A DNA stretch of 64,000 nt from an uncultured Candidatus Saccharibacteria bacterium (GCA_964479955.1 CAYZNK010000002.1:71489-135488); one strand, 5' to 3'. Shown: positions 990-52,884, counted from the first letter of the stretch. Notes: generated by a model from the letters alone, not told the origin. Made by a program: numbers and translations.

Positions 990-1063
990 GCGGGTATAGT
1001 ATAATGGTAGTACACAACCTTCCCAAGGTTGGGGCGTGAGTCCGATTCTCATTACCCGCTCCA
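990..1063 (+). tRNA. tRNA-Gly(CCC), CCA encoded
   Basis: Manual cloverleaf: acceptor gcgggta/tacccgc, anticodon arm caacc-ttCCCaa-ggttg, T arm gtgag-tccgatt-ctcat. 74 nt. Confidence 0.85.
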
Positions 1064-5985: not shown

Positions 5986-6897
5986 ATGGCTTATTGGCTG
6001 ATTGTTATAATAATAGCGTATTTCTTTTTTGCTCTGTCTGCTCTTGGGGATAAGCTTGTTTTGGCTGGCCCCGCAAACCCCAAGGCATATGTGTTTTATG
6101 TTGGGTTATTGAGCATACTGGCTGTTTTTTTGATTCCGTTCGTTGGAATTAAAATTCCCACAACGGGCATGTTTTTTCTGATTGCACTTGATGCAATTAT
6201 TTTTTATATTGCTTTGTATTTTGGGTTTGTGGCAGTTGAAAAATTTGAGATTTCAAGGGTTGCTGTAACAATAGGGGCAACCCAGCCCATATTTATATTT
6301 TTTGTTTCATGGATTTTTTGGGGGTACCAGGGAATTGGATTTTTGGGATTTTTGGCGTTTATTTTTTTGTTTTTAGGAAGCATTATTGTTTCTTTTGACA
6401 AGAAGCTGGAATTTAAAAACAAATACCTGGCGCTTACTCTTTTTGCATCATTGATGTATTCTTTTGATTATTTGATGTCAAAATACATTTTTGAATATTT
6501 TTCCTTTTGGCACGGAATAATATTCAAAAGCGTATTTTTATTTTTAATTTCCATTAGCTTAATTTTAATAAAAAAGAACAGGCAGGAAATCTTAAAGAAA
6601 AATAAAAATTCAGAAAAACAGAAATCATTTGGCAAGTTATTTTTAGCAACGCAGGCATGCGGGGCAGGGGCTAATGTTTTGCAGAGTTTTGCTATTTTTC
6701 TAACGCCGGTGGGATTTTTGCCGGTTTTAAATTCATTAAGGGGATTGCAATATATTTTCTTGTTTACATTTACTTTGTTTATAACGCGTTTTTTCCCTAA
6801 AATCCTCAAAGAAAAAATTTCAAAGAAAACAATAACCAGAAAGGCATTTTCCATTCTTTTAATTATTCTTGGCCTGACGGCTTTGATTTTTTGCTAA
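5986..6897 (+). CDS. polytopic membrane protein, DMT/EamA-like
   Basis: 303 aa with about 10 hydrophobic helices. The family call is tentative. Confidence 0.45.
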   Translation: MAYWLIVIIIAYFFFALSALGDKLVLAGPANPKAYVFYVGLLSILAVFLIPFVGIKIPTTGMFFLIALDAIIFYIALYFGFVAVEKFEISRVAVTIGATQPIFIFFVSWIFWGYQGIGFLGFLAFIFLFLGSIIVSFDKKLEFKNKYLALTLFASLMYSFDYLMSKYIFEYFSFWHGIIFKSVFLFLISISLILIKKNRQEILKKNKNSEKQKSFGKLFLATQACGAGANVLQSFAIFLTPVGFLPVLNSLRGLQYIFLFTFTLFITRFFPKILKEKISKKTITRKAFSILLIILGLTALIFC

Positions 6898-6954
6898 ATA
6901 TTGACTTTAAGTGATTTTTTTATTAACCTATTATTAATCTAAACAAATTGAGCA

Positions 6955-7134
6955 AGCGTGCTTTTCCGGGGTGGCTTGGCAGATTCTTACCCCTTGACAT
7001 GCCAGAAGGTTAGGACCCTCCAAATTTTCCTGACTTTCTTTTGCCAGCCACCCTTTTGTTCTTTAAGGTTCCGCCCTTGGGCGGGTCCATCTTGCCCCGG
7101 GCCGCTGTGTCTTTATGACCCAGCGGCCTTTTTT
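6955..7134 (+). ncRNA. candidate structured small RNA, class unknown
   Basis: GC-rich island in an AT-rich spacer. Contains the helix ggggtggcttggcag/ctgccagccaccc and the hairpin ccgccc-ttg-ggcgg. Terminator is ggccgctg...cagcggcc plus T6 (7099-7134). Confidence 0.45.
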
Positions 7135-7179
7135 GATGAAATCTGAAAAATCTCACAGATTTGATTTACAGACAAGGGA

Positions 7180-7207
7180 TTGACAATCTTTTTTGTTTTG
7201 GTATGAT
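7180..7207 (+). promoter_or_regulatory. sigma70-type promoter
   Basis: TTGACA, 16-nt spacer, TATGAT. Confidence 0.55.
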
Positions 7208-7213
7208 TAAGAT

Positions 7214-7362
7214 AAACATCCTTGTGGGTGTGCTGGCGAACGGCGCTTGGAGCCCTTGCGCAGCCCTAGGCAAGGGCTCCTCTTTGCACTTTTATATTTC
7301 CTAATCATTCCGCTTTGAGCGGATTGCGTTCATTCTGGGGGTGCTGAAAAGTTCAGTACCCC
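7214..7362 (+). ncRNA. candidate structured small RNA, class unknown
   Basis: Lies downstream of the promoter above. Hairpins ggagcccttgc...gcaagggctcc and ccgc-tttga-gcgg. Strong terminator gggggtgctgaa-aa-gttcagtaccccc plus T-run. Confidence 0.5.
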
Positions 7363-7406
7363 CTATTTTTTTATAAAAAAAAGAAATAAAATAAAACTTT
7401 TATCAG

Positions 7407-7435
7407 TTGACCAACCTATATTTTTTTGTTAAAAT
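7407..7435 (+). promoter_or_regulatory. sigma70-type promoter of the tRNA-Ile locus
   Basis: TTGACC, 17-nt spacer, TAAAAT. Confidence 0.5.
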
Positions 7436-7455
7436 TTAAACAGGTTTTGTTGCTT

Positions 7456-7482
7456 GGGCATTAATTCAGTGGTAGAACGCTG
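7456..7482 (+). pseudogene. tRNA-Ile 5' fragment (positions about 1-28)
   Basis: gggcattaattcagtggtagaacgctg versus the gene's gggcgattagttcagtggtagaacgctg (1 indel, 1 mismatch). Confidence 0.7.
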
Positions 7483-7502
7483 AACTGGTTAGTGGAAATG
7501 GT

Positions 7503-7577
7503 GGGCGATTAGTTCAGTGGTAGAACGCTGTCCTGATAAGACAGAGGTCAAAGGTCCGATTCCTTTATCGCCCACCA
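7503..7577 (+). tRNA. tRNA-Ile(GAU), CCA encoded
   Basis: Acceptor gggcgat/atcgccc, anticodon arm ctgtc-ctGATaa-gacag, T arm aaagg-tccgatt-ccttt. 75 nt. Confidence 0.85.
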
Positions 7578-7622
7578 TTTCCACTAAAAGCGCACATATA
7601 AAAAATAAATAAAAAAGCTTTG

Positions 7623-7663
7623 TAAGACAGAGGCCAAAAGTCCGATTCCTTTATCGCCCACCA
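7623..7663 (+). pseudogene. tRNA-Ile 3' fragment (positions about 37-76 including CCA)
   Basis: taagacagaggccaaaagtccgattcctttatcgcccacca has 2 mismatches to 7537-7577. Confidence 0.75.
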
Positions 7664-7688
7664 AAGTTTTAAAAAACAAAACAAAAAT

Positions 7689-8033
7689 ATGAACAAAAAA
7701 AATCTTATAATATTATTAGCTGTTTTGGTTTTAGTATTGATTGTGGGGTTATTTTTGTTTAAAACTTTTGAAAACAATAATTCTGGAGTTGAAAATTCAC
7801 TTGGCGGAGCCAATACAGAATCTTTAAATAATGAAGATGAAAATCAAAATGAGACAACGCCGCAAATACAGGTAGAAGCAGAAGGACAAACGGGTCAGGG
7901 GGAGCTTCTTATTTGCGTTGACGAGTGCGGAAACGGGATTTGCCAAGAGCCTGCCCCGGATTGCGGAGAAGATGGAACTTATAACTGCGTATGCCCGGAA
8001 AATCCAGAGATTTGTCCGCAGGATTGTAATTAA
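7689..8033 (+). CDS. secreted or anchored small protein with a Cys-rich C-terminal module
   Basis: 114 aa with a signal/anchor. There are 9 Cys in the last 40 residues (CVDECGNGICQ...CPENPEICPQDCN). A terminator follows at 8040-8062. Confidence 0.65.
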   Translation: MNKKNLIILLAVLVLVLIVGLFLFKTFENNNSGVENSLGGANTESLNNEDENQNETTPQIQVEAEGQTGQGELLICVDECGNGICQEPAPDCGEDGTYNCVCPENPEICPQDCN

Positions 8034-33077: not shown

Positions 33078-33149
33078 GCCATTCTAGCTCAACAGCAGAG
33101 CAATGCTTTTGTAAAGCATAGGTTCCGAGTGCAAATCTCGGGAATGGCT
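33078..33149 (+). tRNA. tRNA-Thr(UGU)
   Basis: Acceptor gccattc/gaatggc, D arm gctc-aacagca-gagc, anticodon arm atgct-ttTGTaa-agcat, T arm ccgag-tgcaaat-ctcgg. 72 nt. Confidence 0.8.
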
Positions 33150-33208
33150 CATTGTGCGACAAGAGCCTCTTACGAGGCTTTTGTTTTAATTTATGGTATA
33201 ATATATTA

Positions 33209-35713: not shown

Positions 35714-36094
35714 ACATATATAACAATTAAAAACATAAAGACAAAATCACTATATATTCTTCCCGTCATTGCGGGATCCCCCGCTAAGCGGGGGAAAAAC
35801 TAAACAGCGTTTTAAGAATATCCGTGAAGGCAGGTTTTAAAGGTCTGTCTTCACGGGTATTTTTTCTTCTTGGCTGAACGGAAAGCCTTTTGATAATTGA
35901 ATAATGGAAACCAGTTTTAAAAACTGGGAAAAAATTGAATTAGCGGAGTGTCCACAGTACTGAAAATTTCTACGAAAATTTTAGCGCTGAGAGAATTCAC
36001 TTCGTGTAATTCGTTTCTTAAAGTTGTTTCGAATCAAAGCTTGTCGAGTGCTTAACTCGACAGTAGTTTATTCTAACTAGAGTAATCAACTTTT

Positions 36095-37556
36095 TTTTGA
36101 GAGTTTGATCCTAGCTCAGGGTGAACGCTGGTAACGTGGATACCGGCATGCAAGTCGAGCGGACCGCAAGGTCAGCGGCGAACGGCATAGTAACACGTGG
36201 GTACAAACCCTTTTCTCGGGTATAGCCAGCCGAAAGGTTGGGTAATTCCCGATAGTTCTCGCAAGAGTAAAGTCGCAAGACGGAAAAGGATTGGCCCGCG
36301 GCCTATCAGATTGTTGGCAGGGTAACGGCCTACCAAGTCTATGACGGGTAGGGGGCGTGAGAGCGCGACCCCCATGAATGGCACTGCGACACGGGCCATA
36401 CTCCTACGGGAGGCTGCAGTCGAGAATCTTCCGCAATGGGCGAAAGCCTGACGGAGCGACGTTACGTGAATGAAGAAGCCCTTCGGGGTGTAAAGTTCTT
36501 TTATGTGGGAATAAGTTATTGAAGGTACCACATGAATAAGAGGATCCTAATTCTGTGCCAGCAGGAGCGGTAATACAGAATCCTCAAGCGTTACCCGGAT
36601 TTATTGGGCGTAAAGGGTCCGTAGGTGGTAAAGTAAGTTTTGAGTTAAACCTCATCGGCTTAACCTTTGAGCTATTCAAAATACTGCTTTACTTGAGGGC
36701 GTTATGGGTGAACGGAACCGACGGAGTAGGGGTGAAATCCGTTGATATCGTCGGGAACACCAAAAGCGAAGGCAGTTCACTGGGGCGACCCTGACACTGA
36801 GGGACGAAAGCGTGGGTAGCAAAAAGGATTAGATACCCTTGTAGTCCACGCCGTAAATGATGAATACTAGCTATTGGCAGTGTCGACCCTGCCAGTGGCG
36901 AAGCTAACGCGTTAAGTATTCCGCCTAGGAAGTACGGTGGCAACACTAAAACTCAAAGGAATAGACGGGGACTCACACAAGCGGTGGACCATGTGGCTTA
37001 ATTCGACAACAAACGAAGAACCTTACCAGGTCTAGAAATCTGCATGAAAGCCTTCAGAAACGTTGGCCCTTCACAAGACATGCAGACAGGTGCTGCATGG
37101 TTGTCGTCAGTTCGTGTCTTGAGACGTACCGTTAATTCGGGTAACGAACGCAACCCTTGCCGTGTGTTTTAAATGTCACACGGGACTGCCCGAGATAATT
37201 GGGAGGAAGGCGAGGATGACGCCAAATCAGCATGGCCCTTTGATGACCTGGGCCGCACACGTGGTACAATGGCCGGTACAATGGGTTTCGATGCCGCAAG
37301 GCGGAGATTAATCTCATCAAAACCGGTCTCAGTTCGGATTGAGGGCTGAAACCCGCCCTCATGAAGCTGGAATCGCTAGTAATCGCCAATCAGCTATGTG
37401 GCGATGAATACGTTCCTGAGTCTTGTACTCACCGCCCGTCAAGCCAAGCGAGCTGGGGATAGCCGAAGTGCCCGCAAGGGCCCTAAGCTAGATTCAGTAA
37501 GAGGGGCTAAGTCGTAACAAGGCACGGCTAGCGGAAGCTGGTCGTAGATCATTTTT
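36095..37556 (+). rRNA. rrs: 16S rRNA (stand-alone; no linked tRNA or 23S)
   Basis: Starts near gagagtttgatcctagctcag and ends ...aagtcgtaacaaggcacggctagcggaagctggtcgtagatcattttttt. Flanked by a processing stem (36013-36036 pairs with 37690-37713) and a terminator at about 37762-37790. Confidence 0.9.
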
Positions 37557-37840
37557 TTAAAATTTTGTATAGAAACCTTTTGGTTTATATACAAAATGGA
37601 ATGTAGTCGGCTCAGAGTGATTCGATAAACTCAGTTCGATGAGTATATCGAATTGTTCTGAAGCATTTTAGCAGATTTGCTTGAAAATCGCATTCGAAAC
37701 AACTTTAAGAAACTAATTTTTCCACAGAAAAATTATCCTGAGATTTTCGAAGGGTAAGACATTACTCCGTCAAAAGCGGAGTTTTGTTTTGATTAAGGTT
37801 GTTCTTGAAAATTAGTTGGAAAAGAATTAAGCTATCTTAT

Positions 37841-39555: not shown

Positions 39556-39600
39556 CTAAAAACCACCTTAGATCAGGTGGTTTTTTTGTGTTTTAAAATT

Positions 39601-39696
39601 CTGGTGGACCCGGGGAGGAGTTGCCCGAAGGCATTGCTGTCGCCTTCGGCGCCACAATTCGGGGGGATTCTCCCCGCGCCACTAAATAAAATTTAG
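39601..39696 (-). repeat. tRNA-3'-end-associated hairpin element (copy at tRNA-Ala)
   Basis: Minus-strand order: AT palindrome actaaat-aaa-atttagt, inverted copy ggcgcggggagaatc, ccccccgaattg, hairpin gaaggc-gacagcaat-gccttc, then a direct copy ctccccgggtccac plus CA. 39604-39617 is identical to 39696-39709. Confidence 0.7.
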
Positions 39697-39767
39697 TGGA
39701 CCCGGGGAGAATCGAACTCCCAGCTTCTCGTTGCAAACGAGATGTGTTGCCACTATACCACGGGCCC
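39697..39767 (-). tRNA. tRNA-Ala(UGC)
   Basis: Acceptor gggcccg/cgggtcc with the G3:U70 pair, anticodon arm tctcg-ttTGCaa-cgaga, T arm gggag-ttcgatt-ctccc. Confidence 0.8.
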
Positions 39768-48374: not shown

Positions 48375-49020
48375 ATAATTACATGATGAAAAAACAAACC
48401 AATAAATTTAACAAAACAAGCGGATGATTGTCTGACTTTTTGTGTTAGTAGATGACCGCTTGAATAAGCGGTTTTAAATTTATTGAAAATCAGTTTGCCG
48501 GCGATTGAAAATATAAATTGTTTTCAGCCGCGGGTTAATTGATTGAAGCGGAAGCAAAGATTGCTTTTTGAAAATTTAACCCTGTTAAATGTTTTAAATA
48601 ACAAATTGCCTACCAGCAATTTTTAACAGGTTCTTCCCAATTAATTTTAGACATGGGGTCTTTTTAATTGGGGAAAGTAGGTAAGTCCTGTTAAAATTTT
48701 AACAGGATAAAGCATAAAATTAAGTTCACATTTGCGTTGATGATTCAGCGCAAAAAAGTAAACTTACGCAAAAAGATAAGCTTAACAATTAAGTTTATCG
48801 AAGGATAGGTTATAAGCGAATGGCGGATGCCTTGGGATATTGATGCGATGAAGGACGTGGCGTGCCTGCGATAAGCATCGGGGAGGTGGCTAGCAACCTT
48901 TGATCCGGTGATTTCCGAATGGGAAAACCTTATTGTGTTAATCCACAATAACCCCGCCTTGGCGGGGAGCGTACCCGGTGAAGTGAAACATCTCAGTAGC
49001 CGGAGGAAAAGAGAACAAAA

Positions 49021-49289
49021 GTCCTACAACTTACAAATTTTATCAATTTAGCGAAGCGAATTTTGAGACAAATTCGCGACGCGAGGAGCAGTGCGTGCCA
49101 AGTGGCACGAGAGCGACGAAGCAACAAAGAATTTGGCCAAAATTCGTTCGCCCGAAGGGAAACGAAAAAAATGGCTGATTTCTTTGTTGCAACTTCGTTA
49201 ACGTAGTTAACACTATGTTTCCTCGTTGCGCCTCGAAATCATCACATTTTTTCGTTTCTAAATATGACGAAATTTGTAAGTTGTAGGAC
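49021..49289 (+). other. 23S insertion sequence 1 (IVS-like), closed by a 20-bp perfect helix
   Basis: gtcctacaacttacaaattt (49021-40) pairs with aaatttgtaagttgtaggac (49270-89). It lies between GAGGAAAAGA and AGTAGTGGCGAGCGAA. Confidence 0.75.
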
Positions 49290-49346
49290 AAGTTATATCC
49301 TTAGTAGTGGCGAGCGAAAAGGATACAGCCTAAACTAATTTTTTTA

Positions 49347-49505
49347 CACCGCTACTTTTTGATAATTTTCGTAACGAAATAAAATAATTTTGCGCGAGAA
49401 TTTGGAAATGCAAGGAGGTTTGCCAAGTGGCAAGCCGACGAGCAGTTACAAATTTGTAGCCGAAATTATTAATTGCAGTAGAAAAGTTATCAGAAAGTAG
49501 CGGTG
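49347..49505 (+). other. 23S insertion sequence 2 (IVS-like), closed by a 19-bp helix
   Basis: caccgctactttttgataa pairs with ttatcagaaagtagcggtg (one G-U pair). It shares a gccaagtggca...cgacga.gca block with insertion 1. Confidence 0.7.
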
Positions 49506-49861
49506 AAATTAGGGTTGTAAGGTTGTAGCGTCAGGAGCGTTATTTATTCTTCGTATAGTCGAAGAACGAATAATGCTTGCTGAGAGAGAAAATTTAGATA
49601 AAGGTTTTAATAGAAGCACTCTGGAAAGAGGCGCCATAGAAGGTAATAGCCCTGTATATAAAAAAACTATTTATGCTCTTTGCTATGATACTTGAGTACT
49701 GTCGGGCATGATAACCTGGCAGGAATCTACCGGAACTATCCGGTAAGGCTAAATAATCAATATCACCGATAGTGAACCAGTACCGTGAGGGAAAGGTGAA
49801 AAGCAGGGGGTTGACCCCGATGAAATAGTACCTGAAACCATTTGCTTACAAAGAGTCGGAG

Positions 49862-49943
49862 GTCTTCACCTTTTGGGTGTTGAGTTTAATTGTGGAACAA
49901 AACAATTTCCACAAAAATAATTTGACCTTCAAAAGGTGAAGAC
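49862..49943 (+). other. 23S insertion sequence 3 in the helix-25 region
   Basis: gtcttcacctttt pairs with aaaaggtgaagac, a 13-bp perfect stem. Confidence 0.7.
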
Positions 49944-50586
49944 TGACGGCGTGCTTTTTGTAGAACGAGCCAACGAGTTTGAATAATCAATAGTCTAAGC
50001 CCTTACGGGGCGGAGGCACAGCGAAAGCGAGTGTTAAAAGCGCGAAAAATTATATTGGTTGTTCAAGACCCGAAGCCAGACGAGCTTACCGCGAGCAGGA
50101 TGAACCCGGGCGAAAGCCAGGGGGAGGTCCGAACCAGTGAGTCGTGCAATTCTCTTGGATGACTTGTGGTAAGGAGTGAAAAGCTAATCGAGTTTGGTAA
50201 TAGCTGGTTCTTCCCGAAACAGCTTTGGGGCTGGCGTGTACAAACTATTTTCCGGGGGTAGAGCACTGAATAGAATTCCGTGGAGTTTCTCCAGGTCTTC
50301 TAATCAAACTCCGAATACCGGAAAAACTATGTATGCAGTAAGAACGCGGGGGCTAAGCTCCGCGCTCAAAACGGAAACAGCCGAGATCATCGTCTAAGGT
50401 CCCTAAATTAGGCTAAGTGCTAAGAAGGAGGTATTTTACCCTTGACAGGCAGAAAGTTAGCTTAGAGGTAGCTATCTTTTAAAGAGTGTGTAACAACCCA
50501 CTGCCCAAACTTTCCCGCTTGCGGGAGAGAGGGGTGAGATGCGCCAAAGATTTCCGGGGCTAAAGTCTAATACCGAAGACATGGAT

Positions 50587-50712
50587 TCATTCGCATCACA
50601 CTGCGTGTGATGTTAAATGACCAAAAACCAAAAACCAAAAATATTTAATATTTTGGGATTTGAGAATTGGAATTTGGGAATTTAAGCATCGTGCGAAGCG
50701 CGATGCGAGTGA
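50587..50712 (+). other. 23S insertion sequence 4 in the helix-45 region
   Basis: tcattcgcatc pairs with gatgcgagtga. It contains a CA-repeat / UG-repeat hairpin (50621-50683). Confidence 0.65.
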
Positions 50713-51003
50713 GTGGTAGGGAAGCATTCTGAGGGCATTGAAGCAGGAGGGTAACCGACTGTGGAGCGCTCAGAAGAGAGAATGTTGGCCTGAGTAACCG
50801 CATTGCGCGTGAAAGCCGCGCACACCGAAAGTCCAAGGTTTCCTTGGCAATGGTATTCAACCAAGGGTTAGGCGGTCCTAAGGCAAACCTGAAAGGGGTA
50901 GCTGACGGACAGTTGGTTAATATTCCAACCCTTTTTTATCCGTTCAATAAAGTGCGGAATTTAGTAGGTAAAGCGATTTATTGGATTATCGTTGTTAGTC
51001 AGA

Positions 51004-51030
51004 CCTGTCTGCCGTCAGGCAGGCGCAAGA
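51004..51030 (+). repeat. CCTGYCTG...CAGGCAGG palindromic element, copy inside 23S
   Basis: cctgtctg-ccgt-caggcagg-cgcaaga. Confidence 0.6.
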
Positions 51031-51420
51031 ATGGCTAACGGAAGGTCTCTTTATGGGGCTGACTTTACTGAGCAAGTTTCCAAGAAAAGCTTTATTTAAA
51101 TAGGATAAAGAAACCGTACCGTAAACCGACACAGGTGGACAAGCGTAAGTATGCTAAGGTGAACGGGTGAAACCTCGTTAAGGAACTCGGCAAATCAGTG
51201 GCCGTAAGTTCGCAATATGGCCTGCCCGACACGCAAGTGTTTAGGGCTGCAACAAACGTACTTCAACCGACTGTTTATCAAAAACACAGCTCTCTGCTAA
51301 CTCGTAAGAGGATGTATAGGGGGTGAGGCCTGACCAGTGTTGGAATGTTAAGTTTGGGGGTCCAAGCCGCAAGGTTTGGGCTCACTGAATGAAGCACCAA
51401 TGAACGTCGGCGATAACTAT

Positions 51421-52151
51421 AGACTGACGATTGTAGTTATAAAATTTGGCTATATGCTGGAAACTCCGGGTATGTTGAACTACTATCCGTTACTATGATA
51501 AAATATATAGTAATGGAAGTAAAAATGTTTAAACGCGGACAATCAGCAGGAAAGACTTTTGACGAGAAACTCGCTAACTACTTGAGCGGTTTTACTGATG
51601 GCGAAGGAAGCTTCAATATTTCAGTAATTAATCGTGAGAAAGACTATAAACACGGCTGGAAAATCAGCTTGTGTTTCAATATTTCTCAAAAAGATGACAC
51701 AATACCAAGATTATTTAAGGATTTTCTTGATTGCGGTAAAATAAGATACCGCAAAGATGGAATTTGTTATTTTGATGTTAGAAAAACAAAAGATTTAACA
51801 AATATTGTTGTGCCATTCTTTAAAAAATTTCCAGTGCGTTCAAAGAAAAATGAAACTTTTCAGATTTTTTGTGAGGCGTTGGAGATTGTTAAATGTAAAA
51901 AACATTTAACAAAATCCGGAATGAAAAAAATTCTGGATTTGAGAAATAAAATTGTAGTTGGCAGAAAAAGAAAGTATACAAATTCAGAGATACTTTCTAC
52001 TTATAATCAAAAGAATCCTCAGAGACTATACGCCAAACCCCGCTTAGCGGGGAAGATATAGTCCGACCTGCATAGCGATATGCAGAATATAATAGAAATA
52101 TTATATCAAGATACTAAAACTGACTTAATTTAGTATTAGTAACATAAAAAG
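51421..52151 (+). mobile_element. group I intron in the helix-69 loop (after the U equivalent to E. coli U1917)
   Basis: The exon ends ...gataactaT and resumes aatcgtccaaaggtagcg. Intron guide gtagttat (51433-40) pairs with the 8 exon nt ataactat via G-U at the splice site. The intron ends in G and has the core motif aagatatagtccgacc. Confidence 0.8.
51495..52061 (+). CDS. LAGLIDADG homing endonuclease (intron-encoded)
   Basis: YLSGFTDGEGSFNISV motif. The ORF lies inside intron 1 and ends within the core motif. Confidence 0.8.
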   Translation: MIKYIVMEVKMFKRGQSAGKTFDEKLANYLSGFTDGEGSFNISVINREKDYKHGWKISLCFNISQKDDTIPRLFKDFLDCGKIRYRKDGICYFDVRKTKDLTNIVVPFFKKFPVRSKKNETFQIFCEALEIVKCKKHLTKSGMKKILDLRNKIVVGRKRKYTNSEILSTYNQKNPQRLYAKPRLAGKI

Positions 52152-52815
52152 AATCGTCCAAAGGTAGCGTAATCCCTTGCCGGGTAAGTTCCGGCCCGCA
52201 TGAATGGCTTAACGAGTTGAAGACTGTCTCAACGAGGTGCCCGGTGAAAATGCAATAGCAGTGAAGATGCTGCTTACCTGCGGCTAGACGGGAAGACCCC
52301 GGAAGCTTTACTGTAGTTTGATATTGGGTTATGGTTTTTAATGCGTAGCGTAGTGGGGAGGATATGAAACGGCATTTTCGGATGTCGCGGATCCGCCAAT
52401 GAAACACCCATCTTTGGGAATTATAATTCTAATCCACGCCTCAACGGCGGGTGACAGTGTTAAACGGGCAGTTTAAGTGGGGCACTTGCCTCCTAAAAAG
52501 TAATGGAGGCGTTTAAAGGTCAGCTAGCTTCGGATGGAAATCGAAGCGATAGTGTAAAGGCAAAAGCTGGCTTTACTGCAAGACGGCTATGTCACGCAGT
52601 TGCGAAAGCAGAACTTAGTGAACCGACTTGTTTTTATAGAAAACAAGAAGATCATCAGCCAAAAGCTACTCCGGGGATAACAGGCTGGTAGAGCCCGAGC
52701 GTCCATAGCGACGGCTCTGTTCGGCACCTCGATGTCGGCTCAACTTATCCTGGGGCTGGAGCAGGTCCCAAGGGTCCGGCTGTTCGCCGGTTAAAAAGTT
52801 ACGCGAGCTGGGTTC

Positions 52816-52846
<31 letters not shown>

Positions 52847-52884
52847 ACCGCAGGCGTTGAGTTTTGAGGAGATTTGTTCCTAGT

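What the first reader, a model, noticed from the sequence alone, without database searches (positions are those of the whole stretch)
7456..7663. tRNA-Ile(GAU) flanked by a 5'-half copy upstream and a 3'-half copy downstream, with a 19-bp leader-trailer helix
Upstream, 7456-7482 copies tRNA positions about 1-28. Downstream, 7623-7663 copies positions about 37-76 including CCA, with 2 mismatches. The break points meet at the anticodon stem-loop. The intact gene is embedded in an extended helix: agtggaaatggt+gggcgat (7491-7509) pairs with atcgccc+accatttccact (7567-7585), which sequesters the encoded CCA. Possible explanations are an old tRNA gene disrupted at the anticodon loop by DNA carrying a replacement copy, decay of a tandem array, or a processing arrangement. 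tRNA-Ile(GAU) and tRNA-Ala(UGC) usually sit in the 16S-23S spacer, so the helix may be a relic of rRNA-operon processing stems.
Basis: seen in the sequence. Interest (0 to 1): 0.55.

Follow-up and report, generated by a model that had tools for sequence, protein, structure and literature searches.

The report
tRNA gene nested inside its predecessor
An intact isoleucine tRNA gene, clamped by a 21-bp stem, sits on a 135-base insert that split an older copy of the same gene at its anticodon; relatives carry the same arrangement, sometimes several layers deep, which I could not find described.

Summary
tRNA-Ile(GAU) lies at 7503-7577. A decayed copy of its positions 1-34 lies at 7456-7487, and a copy of positions 36-76 lies at 7623-7663. 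A perfect 21-bp leader-trailer helix pairs 7489-7509 with 7567-7587.

Relatives settle the history. A syntenic relative (L066) has a plain tRNA-Ile at the same promoter, so it is an empty site. Others (L003, L065, L054, L016) carry the same insert. L016 and L031 are nested in several layers, and their outer 5' and 3' pieces match each other rather than the inner gene. So a cassette of arm, whole tRNA-Ile, arm and a small hairpin was inserted between anticodon positions 34 and 35 of a resident tRNA-Ile. This is not tandem-array decay.

A metagenome scan found 38 more such loci in candidate-phyla-radiation (Patescibacteria) bacteria. Many lie in the 16S-23S spacer, and tRNA-Ala nests inside tRNA-Ala.

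In the window's AT-rich clade all 8 outer copies are defective, so they are relics. The helix is kept by compensatory changes (97.9% paired) and is absent from plain genes.

How the cassette moves is unknown. Whether GC-rich relatives, whose outer copies are intact, splice it out is also unknown. I found no description in the literature held here.

The parts
7407..7435 (+). Promoter-like site (TTGACC, 17 nt, TAAAAT, with TG). It would drive a transcript that begins about 20 nt before the outer 5' half.
   Evidence: Found by the scan. The same hexamers, and roughly the same spacing to the first tRNA base, occur in L003, L054 and the empty-site relative L066.
7456..7487 (+). Outer 5' half: a relic of the resident tRNA-Ile, positions 1-34, ending at G34. 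It has a 1-nt deletion in the acceptor strand, G10 changed to A, and anticodon-stem TC changed to AA.
   Evidence: It starts about 20 nt after the -10 hexamer, close to where the plain gene starts in L066.
7488..7622 (+). The inserted cassette as a whole (135 nt): G, 14-nt left arm, complete tRNA-Ile, right arm, small A-rich hairpin. G7622 stands where A35 of the outer gene should be.
   Evidence: Boundaries come from the profile alignment of the half copies and from comparison with L016, L028 and L057, where the 3' piece starts at A35.
7489..7502 (+). Left arm (leader) TTAGTGGAAATGGT. It pairs with 7574-7587.
   Evidence: Perfect inverted repeat. Covariation across 11 elements. Two compensatory double changes against L054.
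7503..7577 (+). Inner, intact tRNA-Ile(GAU) with encoded CCA. It is the only tRNA-Ile gene called in the 64-kb window.
   Evidence: Its cloverleaf is regular (alignment).
7574..7587 (+). Right arm: ACCA (discriminator plus CCA of the inner tRNA) plus trailer TTTCCACTAA.
7587..7621 (+). Second small hairpin of the cassette (AAAGC ... GCTTT) with an A-rich loop. Homologous spacers carrying TAAAAAATAAATA-like loops occur in L016, L028, L031, L056, L057 and L059.
   Evidence: Fold. Sequences. The stem covaries in L059, L031 and L056 (GGAAAATA/TATTTTCC against GGAAACTT/AAGTTTCC).
7623..7663 (+). Outer 3' half: a relic of the resident tRNA-Ile, positions 36-76 including CCA. It has 2 substitutions, one of which breaks the T stem.
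   Evidence: Its downstream flank (AAGTTTT...) resembles the flank of the plain gene in L066.

Best explanation
**What it is.** The locus is a resident tRNA-Ile(GAU) gene that was split between anticodon positions 34 and 35. The splitting agent was a compact 135-nt cassette that carries its own complete tRNA-Ile. The inner gene (7503-7577) now does the work. The two outer pieces (7456-7487 and 7623-7663) are co-transcribed, decaying remnants of the older gene.

**The cassette.** It has 14-nt complementary arms that extend the inner acceptor stem to 21 bp, plus a second small hairpin. Together these bring its two ends side by side.

**Why it is tolerated and why it nests (inferred).** The cassette replaces the essential gene it destroys, so the insertion is tolerated. 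It also re-creates an intact target, so it can be invaded again. That would produce the two- to four-layer nests seen in relatives.

**How it moves and is lost (inferred).** Spread is most likely at the DNA level. The candidates are homologous recombination or homing, using the universally conserved tRNA halves as homology arms, or a hairpin-element transposition that targets tRNA loops. Loss would occur by deletion between the direct repeats.

**What the helix does (inferred).** The arms are kept paired by selection. The most likely role is at the RNA level, as a roughly 21-bp processing or folding stem that releases the inner tRNA from a transcript full of half-tRNA sequence. A role as a single-stranded DNA hairpin during transfer is possible.

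**Shown:** the insertion history, the relic state of the outer halves, covariation of the helix, and the wide distribution.
**Inferred:** the means of mobility and the role of the helix.
For: 1. **Empty site.** L066 has a matching promoter-like sequence, a plain uninterrupted tRNA-Ile of the GGGCGAT...ATCGCCCACCA allele, a similar downstream flank, and a similar gene order: small membrane protein, an extra aminoacyl-tRNA synthetase gene, MBL hydrolase, S51 peptidase, FtsZ. L006 and L008 are also plain.

2. **Same insert in relatives.** L002/L003 (MBL protein 83% identical), L065 (81%) and L054, which shares the promoter-like sequence and the 3' flank, all carry it.

3. **Nesting, not tandem order.** In L016 the order is 5' piece A, 5' piece B, whole gene C, 3' piece B. 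The acceptor strands of B (GGGCTCA/TGAGCCC) match each other and differ from C (GGGCGAT/ATCGCCC). Each layer has its own 14-bp arm pair. The same holds for L031, L054 and L023.

4. **Reciprocal invasions.** The GGGCGAT allele sits inside GGGCCCG in L054, and GGGCCCG sits inside GGGCGAT in L056.

5. **Outer copies are dead in this clade.** All 8 assembled outer copies have broken stems or lack A35. The window's copy has 5 stem defects.

6. **The helix is under structural constraint.** Across 11 elements, 97.9% of cells are paired, 10 of 17 pairs changed on both sides, and 0 of 500 shuffles reach the observed score. Slid controls pair at 39-49%. In L054 the CCA itself changed (C75 to T) together with its leader partner. 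Plain genes have no such helix.

7. **Recombination among copies.** The L003 and L065 halves are identical to the inner gene where visible. The T/C difference in the D loop (GTGGTAGAAC in the window, GTGGCAGAAC in L003) is shared by the half and the gene within each genome. The AACTG variant of the 5' half tracks the cassette subtype, not the resident allele.

8. **Breadth.** 38 true loci came from one metagenome scan. Among relatives reached by gene neighbourhood rather than by the pattern, 5 of 8 are nested.

9. **Cognate rule.** tRNA-Ala is nested inside a tRNA-Ala-like gene in L037, using the same arm family.
Against: - No enzyme or mobility intermediate was identified. There is no target-site duplication and no second copy of the arms in the window.
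- No carrier was found on viral contigs.
- The metagenome pattern required a 5' half, so frequencies from that scan are biased.
- In GC-rich relatives, 10 of 11 outer copies with both halves are flawless after in-silico removal of the inserts. That would also fit true splicing.
- Compensatory changes between orthologous loci could reflect allele replacement by recombination rather than selection in place.
- A thermodynamic test of the folding-clamp idea was weak. The inner acceptor stem still forms with probability 0.57-0.92 when the leader is shuffled.
Confidence: 0.72

Rival explanations
1. The cassette is a true tRNA intron that happens to contain a tRNA. The outer halves are exons that are spliced and ligated, so the locus yields two tRNA-Ile molecules.
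For: The interruption is in the anticodon loop, and the two helices bring the insert's ends together. The 14-nt complementary arms recall archaeal split tRNAs. GC-rich relatives have flawless outer copies with a precise 35/36 partition. L026 and L029 share homologous inserts yet differ by four compensated pairs in their outer exons.
Against: In the window the outer copy has a deleted acceptor base, mismatches in the D, anticodon and T stems, and G instead of A35. All 8 outer copies of this clade are defective. I found no bulge-helix-bulge geometry and no group I intron match. Many relatives have orphan 5' pieces whose 3' partners are deleted: L024, L035, L038, L040, L051. Small hairpin inserts occur only in outer copies that have an intact cognate copy next to them. 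The outer tRNA-Ala in L037 lacks G3:U70.
Confidence: 0.07
2. The fragments are leftovers of a tandem array of tRNA-Ile genes that lost the 3' part of the first copy and the 5' part of the third.
For: Three tRNA-Ile-related segments lie in direct orientation within 210 nt.
Against: Both break points fall at the anticodon, and both outer ends fall at the mature tRNA ends. In relatives the outer 5' and 3' pieces match each other and differ from the middle gene. The arm pairs are nested. An empty-site relative has one gene, not an array.
Confidence: 0.03
3. The 3' half copy is an attachment-site scar (attL/attR) of an integrase-driven element that integrated into the tRNA-Ile anticodon loop and was later almost entirely deleted.
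For: A direct repeat running from the anticodon loop to the exact 3' end is the classic footprint of integration at tRNA genes (established knowledge of tyrosine-integrase att sites). The repeat is 41 nt at 95% identity.
Against: Only 45 nt lie between the repeats, and there is no integrase. It does not explain the upstream 5' half, the arm complementarity, or the nested layers. No viral contig carries this tRNA 3' end.
Confidence: 0.04
4. The arrangement is a functional device. The co-transcribed half-tRNAs, or the long stem, act as regulatory RNAs or decoys, and they are kept for that reason.
For: The halves lie downstream of the predicted promoter, so they are probably co-transcribed with the gene. 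The 5' half forms its own hairpin, and the AACTG variant recurs in several lineages. The helix and spacer are more conserved than the upstream intergenic DNA.
Against: The halves decay differently in each lineage and are often deleted. Plain loci do without them. The AACTG variant tracks the cassette subtype, which fits co-transfer.
Confidence: 0.05

Closest known systems
Archaeal split and intron-containing tRNA genes (Nanoarchaeum equitans split tRNAs, Caldivirga tri-split tRNAs, mobile introns of Thermoproteales)
   Same: The tRNA is interrupted in or next to the anticodon loop. Complementary sequences of about 14 nt follow the 5' part and precede the 3' part. Relatives have insertions at several loop positions. 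(The literature is summarised in PMC10714607; the rest is from my own knowledge.)
   Different: The host is bacterial. No bulge-helix-bulge motif was seen. The interrupting sequence contains a whole cognate tRNA gene. In this clade the outer parts are defective rather than spliced.
Bacterial group I introns in tRNA anticodon loops (e.g. cyanobacterial tRNA-Leu(UAA), Azoarcus tRNA-Ile)
   Same: A bacterial tRNA gene is interrupted inside the anticodon loop. The 34/35 site is the one used by the tRNA-Leu intron (own knowledge).
   Different: The insert is only 135 nt, has no ribozyme core and gives no Rfam intron match. It carries a tRNA, and the exons are decayed.
Integrative elements (phages, islands) that insert into tRNA genes and carry a replacement for the displaced part
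   Same: They target a tRNA gene, the element restores function, and a displaced partial copy is left as a direct repeat.
   Different: Here the whole tRNA is replaced and both halves are displaced. There is no integrase or other gene, the insert is 135 nt, and the insertion is recursive and nested.
Twintrons (introns inside introns) and homing elements
   Same: The element re-creates or contains its own target, which gives nested layers. Flanking markers appear to be co-transferred, as the AACTG variant is.
   Different: No splicing and no endonuclease gene was shown. The damage is compensated by a spare gene copy, not by excision.
Hairpin-forming non-autonomous elements (MITEs, REP doublets/REPINs)
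   Same: Short inverted-repeat arms form one long hairpin. GC-rich relatives have related cargo-free hairpins, with a 4-5-nt extension (consensus about CNTG) at the 5' end of the cargo-free hairpins and, as its reverse complement, at the 3' end of the tRNA-carrying ones.
   Different: The window has a single copy, no target-site duplication, a tRNA as cargo, and insertions only in tRNA loops as far as seen.
RNase III processing stems around rRNAs, and intervening sequences in bacterial rRNA
   Same: A perfect leader-trailer duplex of about 21 bp encloses a stable RNA. GC-rich relatives carry the nests inside rRNA operons.
   Different: The duplex encloses a tRNA and includes its CCA. Plain tRNA-Ile genes of relatives lack it. 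Cleavage was not tested.

Membership tests
Protein-spliced (bulge-helix-bulge) tRNA intron | Exons rejoin to give a functional cloverleaf and anticodon. | tested here: not met
   The assembled outer copy of the window has 5 stem defects and the loop CTGGTAA instead of CTGATAA. All 8 outer copies of the clade are defective.
Protein-spliced (bulge-helix-bulge) tRNA intron | Two 3-nt bulges separated by a 4-bp helix at the splice sites. | tested here: inconclusive
   In the predicted fold, one junction lies 1 nt from the long helix and the other lies next to the second hairpin. No such motif was seen. This rests on inspection only; no dedicated motif search was run.
Protein-spliced (bulge-helix-bulge) tRNA intron | A splicing endonuclease and an RNA ligase are encoded by the organism. 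| not testable with these tools
   Only 64 kb of the genome is in hand, and no query sequence for the enzyme was available.
Group I intron in a bacterial tRNA | A conserved ribozyme core detectable by the Rfam intron models, and a length above about 200 nt. | tested here: not met
   No intron family matched at E up to 10 in 6700-7900 or up to 1 in L037. The insert is 135 nt.
Integrase-mediated insertion at a tRNA gene | A direct repeat of the tRNA 3' part bounds an element that encodes (or once encoded) an integrase. | tested here: not met
   The repeat is present, but only 45 nt and no ORF lie between the copies. The 5' half and the nested arms are unexplained. The viral scan found 0 hits.
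Split tRNA genes (Nanoarchaeum type) | Separately transcribed, intact halves are joined through complementary flanks. | tested here: not met
   Complementary 14-nt flanks exist. However, the halves lie in one predicted transcription unit around a whole tRNA, and they are defective.
MITE / REPIN-type hairpin element | Inverted-repeat arms that form a hairpin. | tested here: met
   A 21-bp perfect inverted repeat, with arms that covary.
MITE / REPIN-type hairpin element | Many dispersed copies per genome, and target-site duplication or an associated transposase. | tested here: not met
   The arms are unique in the 64 kb. There is no duplication at the junctions. A transposase could not be tested.
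Decayed tandem tRNA array | Fragments lie in serial order, each being the remnant of an independent neighbouring copy. | tested here: not met
   Outer 5' and 3' pieces pair with each other across the inner gene in L016, L031, L054 and L023. A single gene occupies the empty site.
RNase III processing stem | A conserved duplex of about two helical turns enclosing the mature RNA. | tested here: met
   The duplex is 20-24 bp in all 11 elements, and pairing is kept by compensatory change.
RNase III processing stem | Cleavage within the stem by RNase III. | not testable with these tools
   This needs RNA end mapping or an in-vitro assay.

The most novel reading that the evidence does not exclude
The cassette may be a bacterial tRNA-hosting intron. 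In GC-rich Patescibacteria the outer copies are flawless, the partition falls exactly at 35/36, and there are further small hairpins in the D, variable and T loops. There, an unknown protein machinery (not group I, not obviously bulge-helix-bulge) would splice the nested genes, so that one locus in the 16S-23S spacer would yield two or three tRNA-Ile molecules. The window would then be a degenerate descendant in which splicing was lost and only the innermost gene survives.
Probability: 0.2. Interest if true: 0.95.

Novelty: categorically new. Interest (0 to 1): 0.8.

Why it matters
If correct, this adds a new strategy to the ways selfish or neutral DNA can settle in an essential gene. Instead of splicing itself out, as introns and inteins do, or restoring only the displaced end, as integrative elements do, the insert brings a full spare copy of the gene it breaks. 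Because it thereby rebuilds its own target, it can be invaded again and forms nests.

It bears on three wider questions:
- how split and intron-containing tRNA genes arise;
- why the anticodon loop is the favoured break point;
- how recombination shapes the single-copy RNA genes of ultra-small bacteria.

In practice, these loci confuse tRNA annotation (half genes, false "intron" calls) and break metagenome assemblies at the repeats. One contig here, L065, starts inside the inner tRNA gene.

The intact outer copies in GC-rich relatives make it directly testable whether protein-dependent tRNA splicing exists in bacteria.

Tried and rejected
- **Exact-protein look-ups.** For two of the window's neighbouring genes these found nothing. 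The third gave a contig too short to reach the tRNA.
- **Viral carriers.** A scan for the tRNA 3' end and a scan for the nested pattern each gave 0 hits.
- **Rfam at permissive thresholds.** No intron or ribozyme family matched around the locus or in a three-layer relative. Only chance microRNA-like hits to the long stem appeared.
- **Bulge-helix-bulge geometry.** I looked for it by eye at AT-type and GC-type junctions and did not see it.
- **Integron-like GTTRRRY sites.** I considered these at the left junction (G|TTAGTGG) and dropped the idea, because other subtypes lack the motif.
- **Tandem-array and fold-back duplication models.** Rejected on the nested matching of the outer halves.
- **Folding-clamp test.** Shuffling the leader lowers the predicted probability of the inner acceptor stem only modestly, so the result is inconclusive (one search had an indexing error and should be ignored).
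- **Spliced-alignment script.** A greedy version mixed layers in multi-layer loci, so I assembled the outer copies by hand.
- **Literature.** Seven searches (candidate phyla radiation plus tRNA introns, bulge-helix-bulge plus Patescibacteria, nested tRNA, and others) found no description.
- **Source organism.** The cluster look-up did not name it.

Full report
**1. The observation**

ARAGORN and Rfam place one tRNA-Ile(GAU) at 7503-7577, scoring 71.6 bits with CCA encoded.

- The repeat finder shows a 41-nt copy of its positions 36-76 at 7623-7663, 39/41 identical and ending exactly at CCA.
- It also shows a perfect 21-bp inverted repeat, 7489-7509 with 7567-7587.
- A tRNA-Ile profile and a spliced alignment place the upstream copy at 7456-7487, positions 1-34. 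It has one deleted base in the acceptor strand and three substitutions.
- The arms and the D-arm 14-mer occur nowhere else in the window.
- None of the other five tRNAs has a comparable leader-trailer helix.
- A promoter-like site at 7407-7435 precedes the 5' copy by about 20 nt.

The description is therefore correct, and it cannot be due to chance.

**2. The organism**

The window holds bacterial 16S, 23S and 5S genes that are unlinked. It is 36.6% G+C. The neighbouring MBL-fold hydrolase has its best named relatives in Candidatus Staskawiczbacteria. This is a candidate-phyla-radiation (Patescibacteria) genome.

**3. Close relatives**

I fetched contigs that encode homologues of the downstream hydrolase. 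These loci were chosen by gene neighbourhood, not by the pattern.

- L002/L003 (protein 83% identical, same gene order) carry the same arrangement, and both half copies are 100% identical to the inner gene.
- L065 (81%) carries it too. Its contig starts inside the inner tRNA gene, so only the part from the inner 3' end onward is visible.
- L054, from the metagenome scan, shares the promoter-like sequence and the 3' flank. It carries the same cassette inside a different resident allele, GGGCCCG/CGGGCCC.
- L066 (70%) has a matching promoter-like sequence and a similar gene order downstream, with one extra aminoacyl-tRNA synthetase gene. It has a plain, uninterrupted tRNA-Ile of the GGGCGAT...ATCGCCCACCA allele, starting at a similar distance from the -10 hexamer, with a similar 3' flank. 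This is an empty site.
- L006 and L008 are also plain.

None of the plain genes has a leader-trailer helix.

**4. Nesting**

L016 is a Staskawiczbacteria genome bin. It reads:

- 5' piece A, arm
- 5' piece B, arm
- whole gene C
- arm, hairpin, 3' piece B
- arm

The acceptor strands of B (GGGCTCA and TGAGCCC) fit each other and differ from C. Each layer has its own perfectly complementary 14-nt arm pair, with sequences different from the window's.

This order, with matching halves around a different inner gene, cannot come from decay of a tandem array. It is what repeated insertion into the anticodon of the current inner gene would give.

In L016, L028 and L057 the partition is exact: the 5' piece ends at G34 and the 3' piece starts at A35. 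In the window, G7622 stands in place of A35.

**5. Breadth**

One metagenome scan searched for a tRNA-Ile 5' half followed within 8-30 nt by the start of another tRNA-Ile. It returned 39 loci, of which 38 are true and about 30 are distinct.

*An AT-rich group, which includes the window.* The arms abut the tRNA and include TGGT/ACCA, and a second hairpin with an A-rich loop follows.

*A GC-rich group.*
- The inserts sit between positions 35 and 36, and in some layers at other loop positions.
- The arms are 14-17 bp and not contiguous with the acceptor stem.
- There are up to four 5' layers (L040).
- The outer copies carry additional small GC hairpins in the D, variable and T loops.
- Several of these loci are bacterial rRNA operons in which the nest lies between 16S and tRNA-Ala/23S.
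- In L037, tRNA-Ala is itself nested inside a tRNA-Ala-like gene, using the same arm family.

Another relative, L062, shows a nest with a different tRNA-Ile type, an insertion near 31/32, and again a 14-bp arm pair.

Among the eight relatives reached through gene neighbourhood, five are nested.

**6. Are the outer copies alive?**

I assembled the outer copies by removing the inserts in silico and counted stem mismatches.

- *AT-rich group.* All 8 are defective. Six lack A35, and the others have broken anticodon, T or acceptor stems. The window's copy has defects in all four stems.
- *GC-rich group.* 10 of 11 copies that retain both halves are flawless and have the loop CTGATAA.

However, many GC-rich loci have orphan 5' pieces whose 3' partners are gone (L024, L035, L038, L040, L051). 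L033 is a mismatched recombinant. The outer tRNA-Ala of L037 lacks the G3:U70 pair.

The simplest reading has three parts:
- Outer copies are dispensable.
- Nests are young where the outer copies are intact.
- Nests are lost quickly by deletion between the direct repeats.

True splicing in the GC-rich lineages is not excluded.

**7. The helix**

I aligned eleven AT-type elements. The 17 pairs counted are 7 acceptor pairs plus 10 arm pairs.

- 97.9% of cells are paired.
- 10 pairs changed on both sides, including 7 of the 10 arm pairs.
- No shuffle out of 500 reaches the observed score.
- Slid controls pair at 39-49%.

Between the window and L054 there are two compensated double changes and one C·A intermediate. 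One double change alters the encoded CCA (C75 to T) together with its leader partner. Pairing, not the CCA, is therefore what is kept.

The predicted fold of the transcript shows four features (z-scores about -6 and -7.5):
- the 21-bp clamp with the T arm and part of the tRNA body (the D-arm region is drawn differently from the cloverleaf);
- the second hairpin;
- a hairpin within the 5' half;
- residual pairing of the outer acceptor strands.

Plain genes lack the helix, so it belongs to the cassette. A test of the idea that it protects the inner tRNA from mispairing with the halves gave only a modest effect. Its constant length of about two helical turns would suit RNase III, but that is inference.

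**8. Recombination**

- Within each genome, the half copies share variants with the inner gene: the D-loop base is T in the window and C in L003.
- The L003 halves are fully homogenised.
- The 3' half of L059 carries the inner gene's acceptor strand.
- The AACTG variant of the 5' half occurs with three cassette subtypes and four resident alleles, but never with the CACA subtype. This looks like co-transfer of a flanking marker.

These points favour spread by recombination or homing through the conserved tRNA halves. No enzyme was identified. There is no target-site duplication, and no viral carrier was found.

**9. Comparison with known systems**

The locus fails the tests for:
- a group I intron: no model match, 135 nt;
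- an integrase scar: no element or integrase, and the 5' half is unexplained;
- a split tRNA: defective halves in one predicted transcription unit;
- a tandem array.

A bulge-helix-bulge motif was not seen, but I checked only by inspection. The locus shares hairpin arms with MITE/REPIN-type elements, but it is single-copy and carries a tRNA.

Seven literature searches found no description of tRNA genes nested in copies of themselves in these bacteria. The library is incomplete, so prior description elsewhere cannot be ruled out.

**10. Verdict**

The finding is real. The locus belongs to a widespread, recursive and apparently undescribed family. The insertion history, the relic state of the halves and the structural conservation of the helix are shown. 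The mode of mobility and the role of the helix are inferred.

Noticed in passing
window 39596-39709 (minus strand, downstream of tRNA-Ala 39696-39767): tRNA-Ala(UGC) is followed 92 nt downstream by a second 22-nt copy of its 3' end that includes CCA (the gene itself lacks CCA). Between the two lies an inverted copy of the same 3' end. This may be another relic of the same kind of event.
   Followed up: partly
window 6950-7365: A GC-rich non-coding block sits just upstream of the tRNA-Ile promoter. It has a strong promoter-like site (7180-7207) and terminator-like hairpins (7270-7287, 7337-7363). It is conserved in L003, with compensating changes in the last hairpin, and no Rfam family matches. 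A comparable hairpin plus T-run precedes the promoter-like sequence upstream of tRNA-Ile in L025, L043, L054, L066 and L006. It is probably one or two unclassified small RNAs.
   Followed up: partly
window 990-1063, 7503-7577, 33078-33150: The T loops are unusual. tRNA-Gly and tRNA-Ile have TCCGATT (C where the near-universal U55 should be). tRNA-Thr(UGU) has TGCAAAT. Only 2 of the 6 tRNAs encode CCA.
   Followed up: no
window 36093-37559, 48803-52881, 51495-52061: The rRNA genes are unlinked: 16S and 23S lie 11 kb apart, and tRNA-Ala is on the opposite strand. The 23S match spans 4079 nt against a 2925-nt model. It contains a 188-aa ORF with a LAGLIDADG-like motif (LSGFTDGEGSF), which suggests an intron with a homing endonuclease.
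   Followed up: partly
L037 3760-3995; L040 (oriented region printed): tRNA-Ala(UGC) is nested inside pieces of a second tRNA-Ala-like gene, inserted at about position 38/39 and using the same arm family as the tRNA-Ile nests of that genome. The outer copy lacks the G3:U70 pair and carries an extra small hairpin.
   Followed up: partly
L047 11158-11400: An intact tRNA-Gln is followed by a 5'-truncated second tRNA-Gln that carries GC-rich hairpin inserts. These end in the same GGCGGGGTGAAG motif seen in the D-loop insert of outer tRNA-Ile copies.
   Followed up: no
L024/L047, L026, L029, L034, L037, L044, L058 (outer tRNA-Ile copies): Short GC-rich hairpins are inserted in the D loop, at the anticodon-stem/variable-loop junction, or in the T loop. 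Most have the form of a 4-nt extension followed by CCCCGC...GCGGGG. They occur only in outer copies that have an intact cognate gene inside them. The tRNA-carrying arms show the mirror-image form, with the extension at the 3' end.
   Followed up: partly
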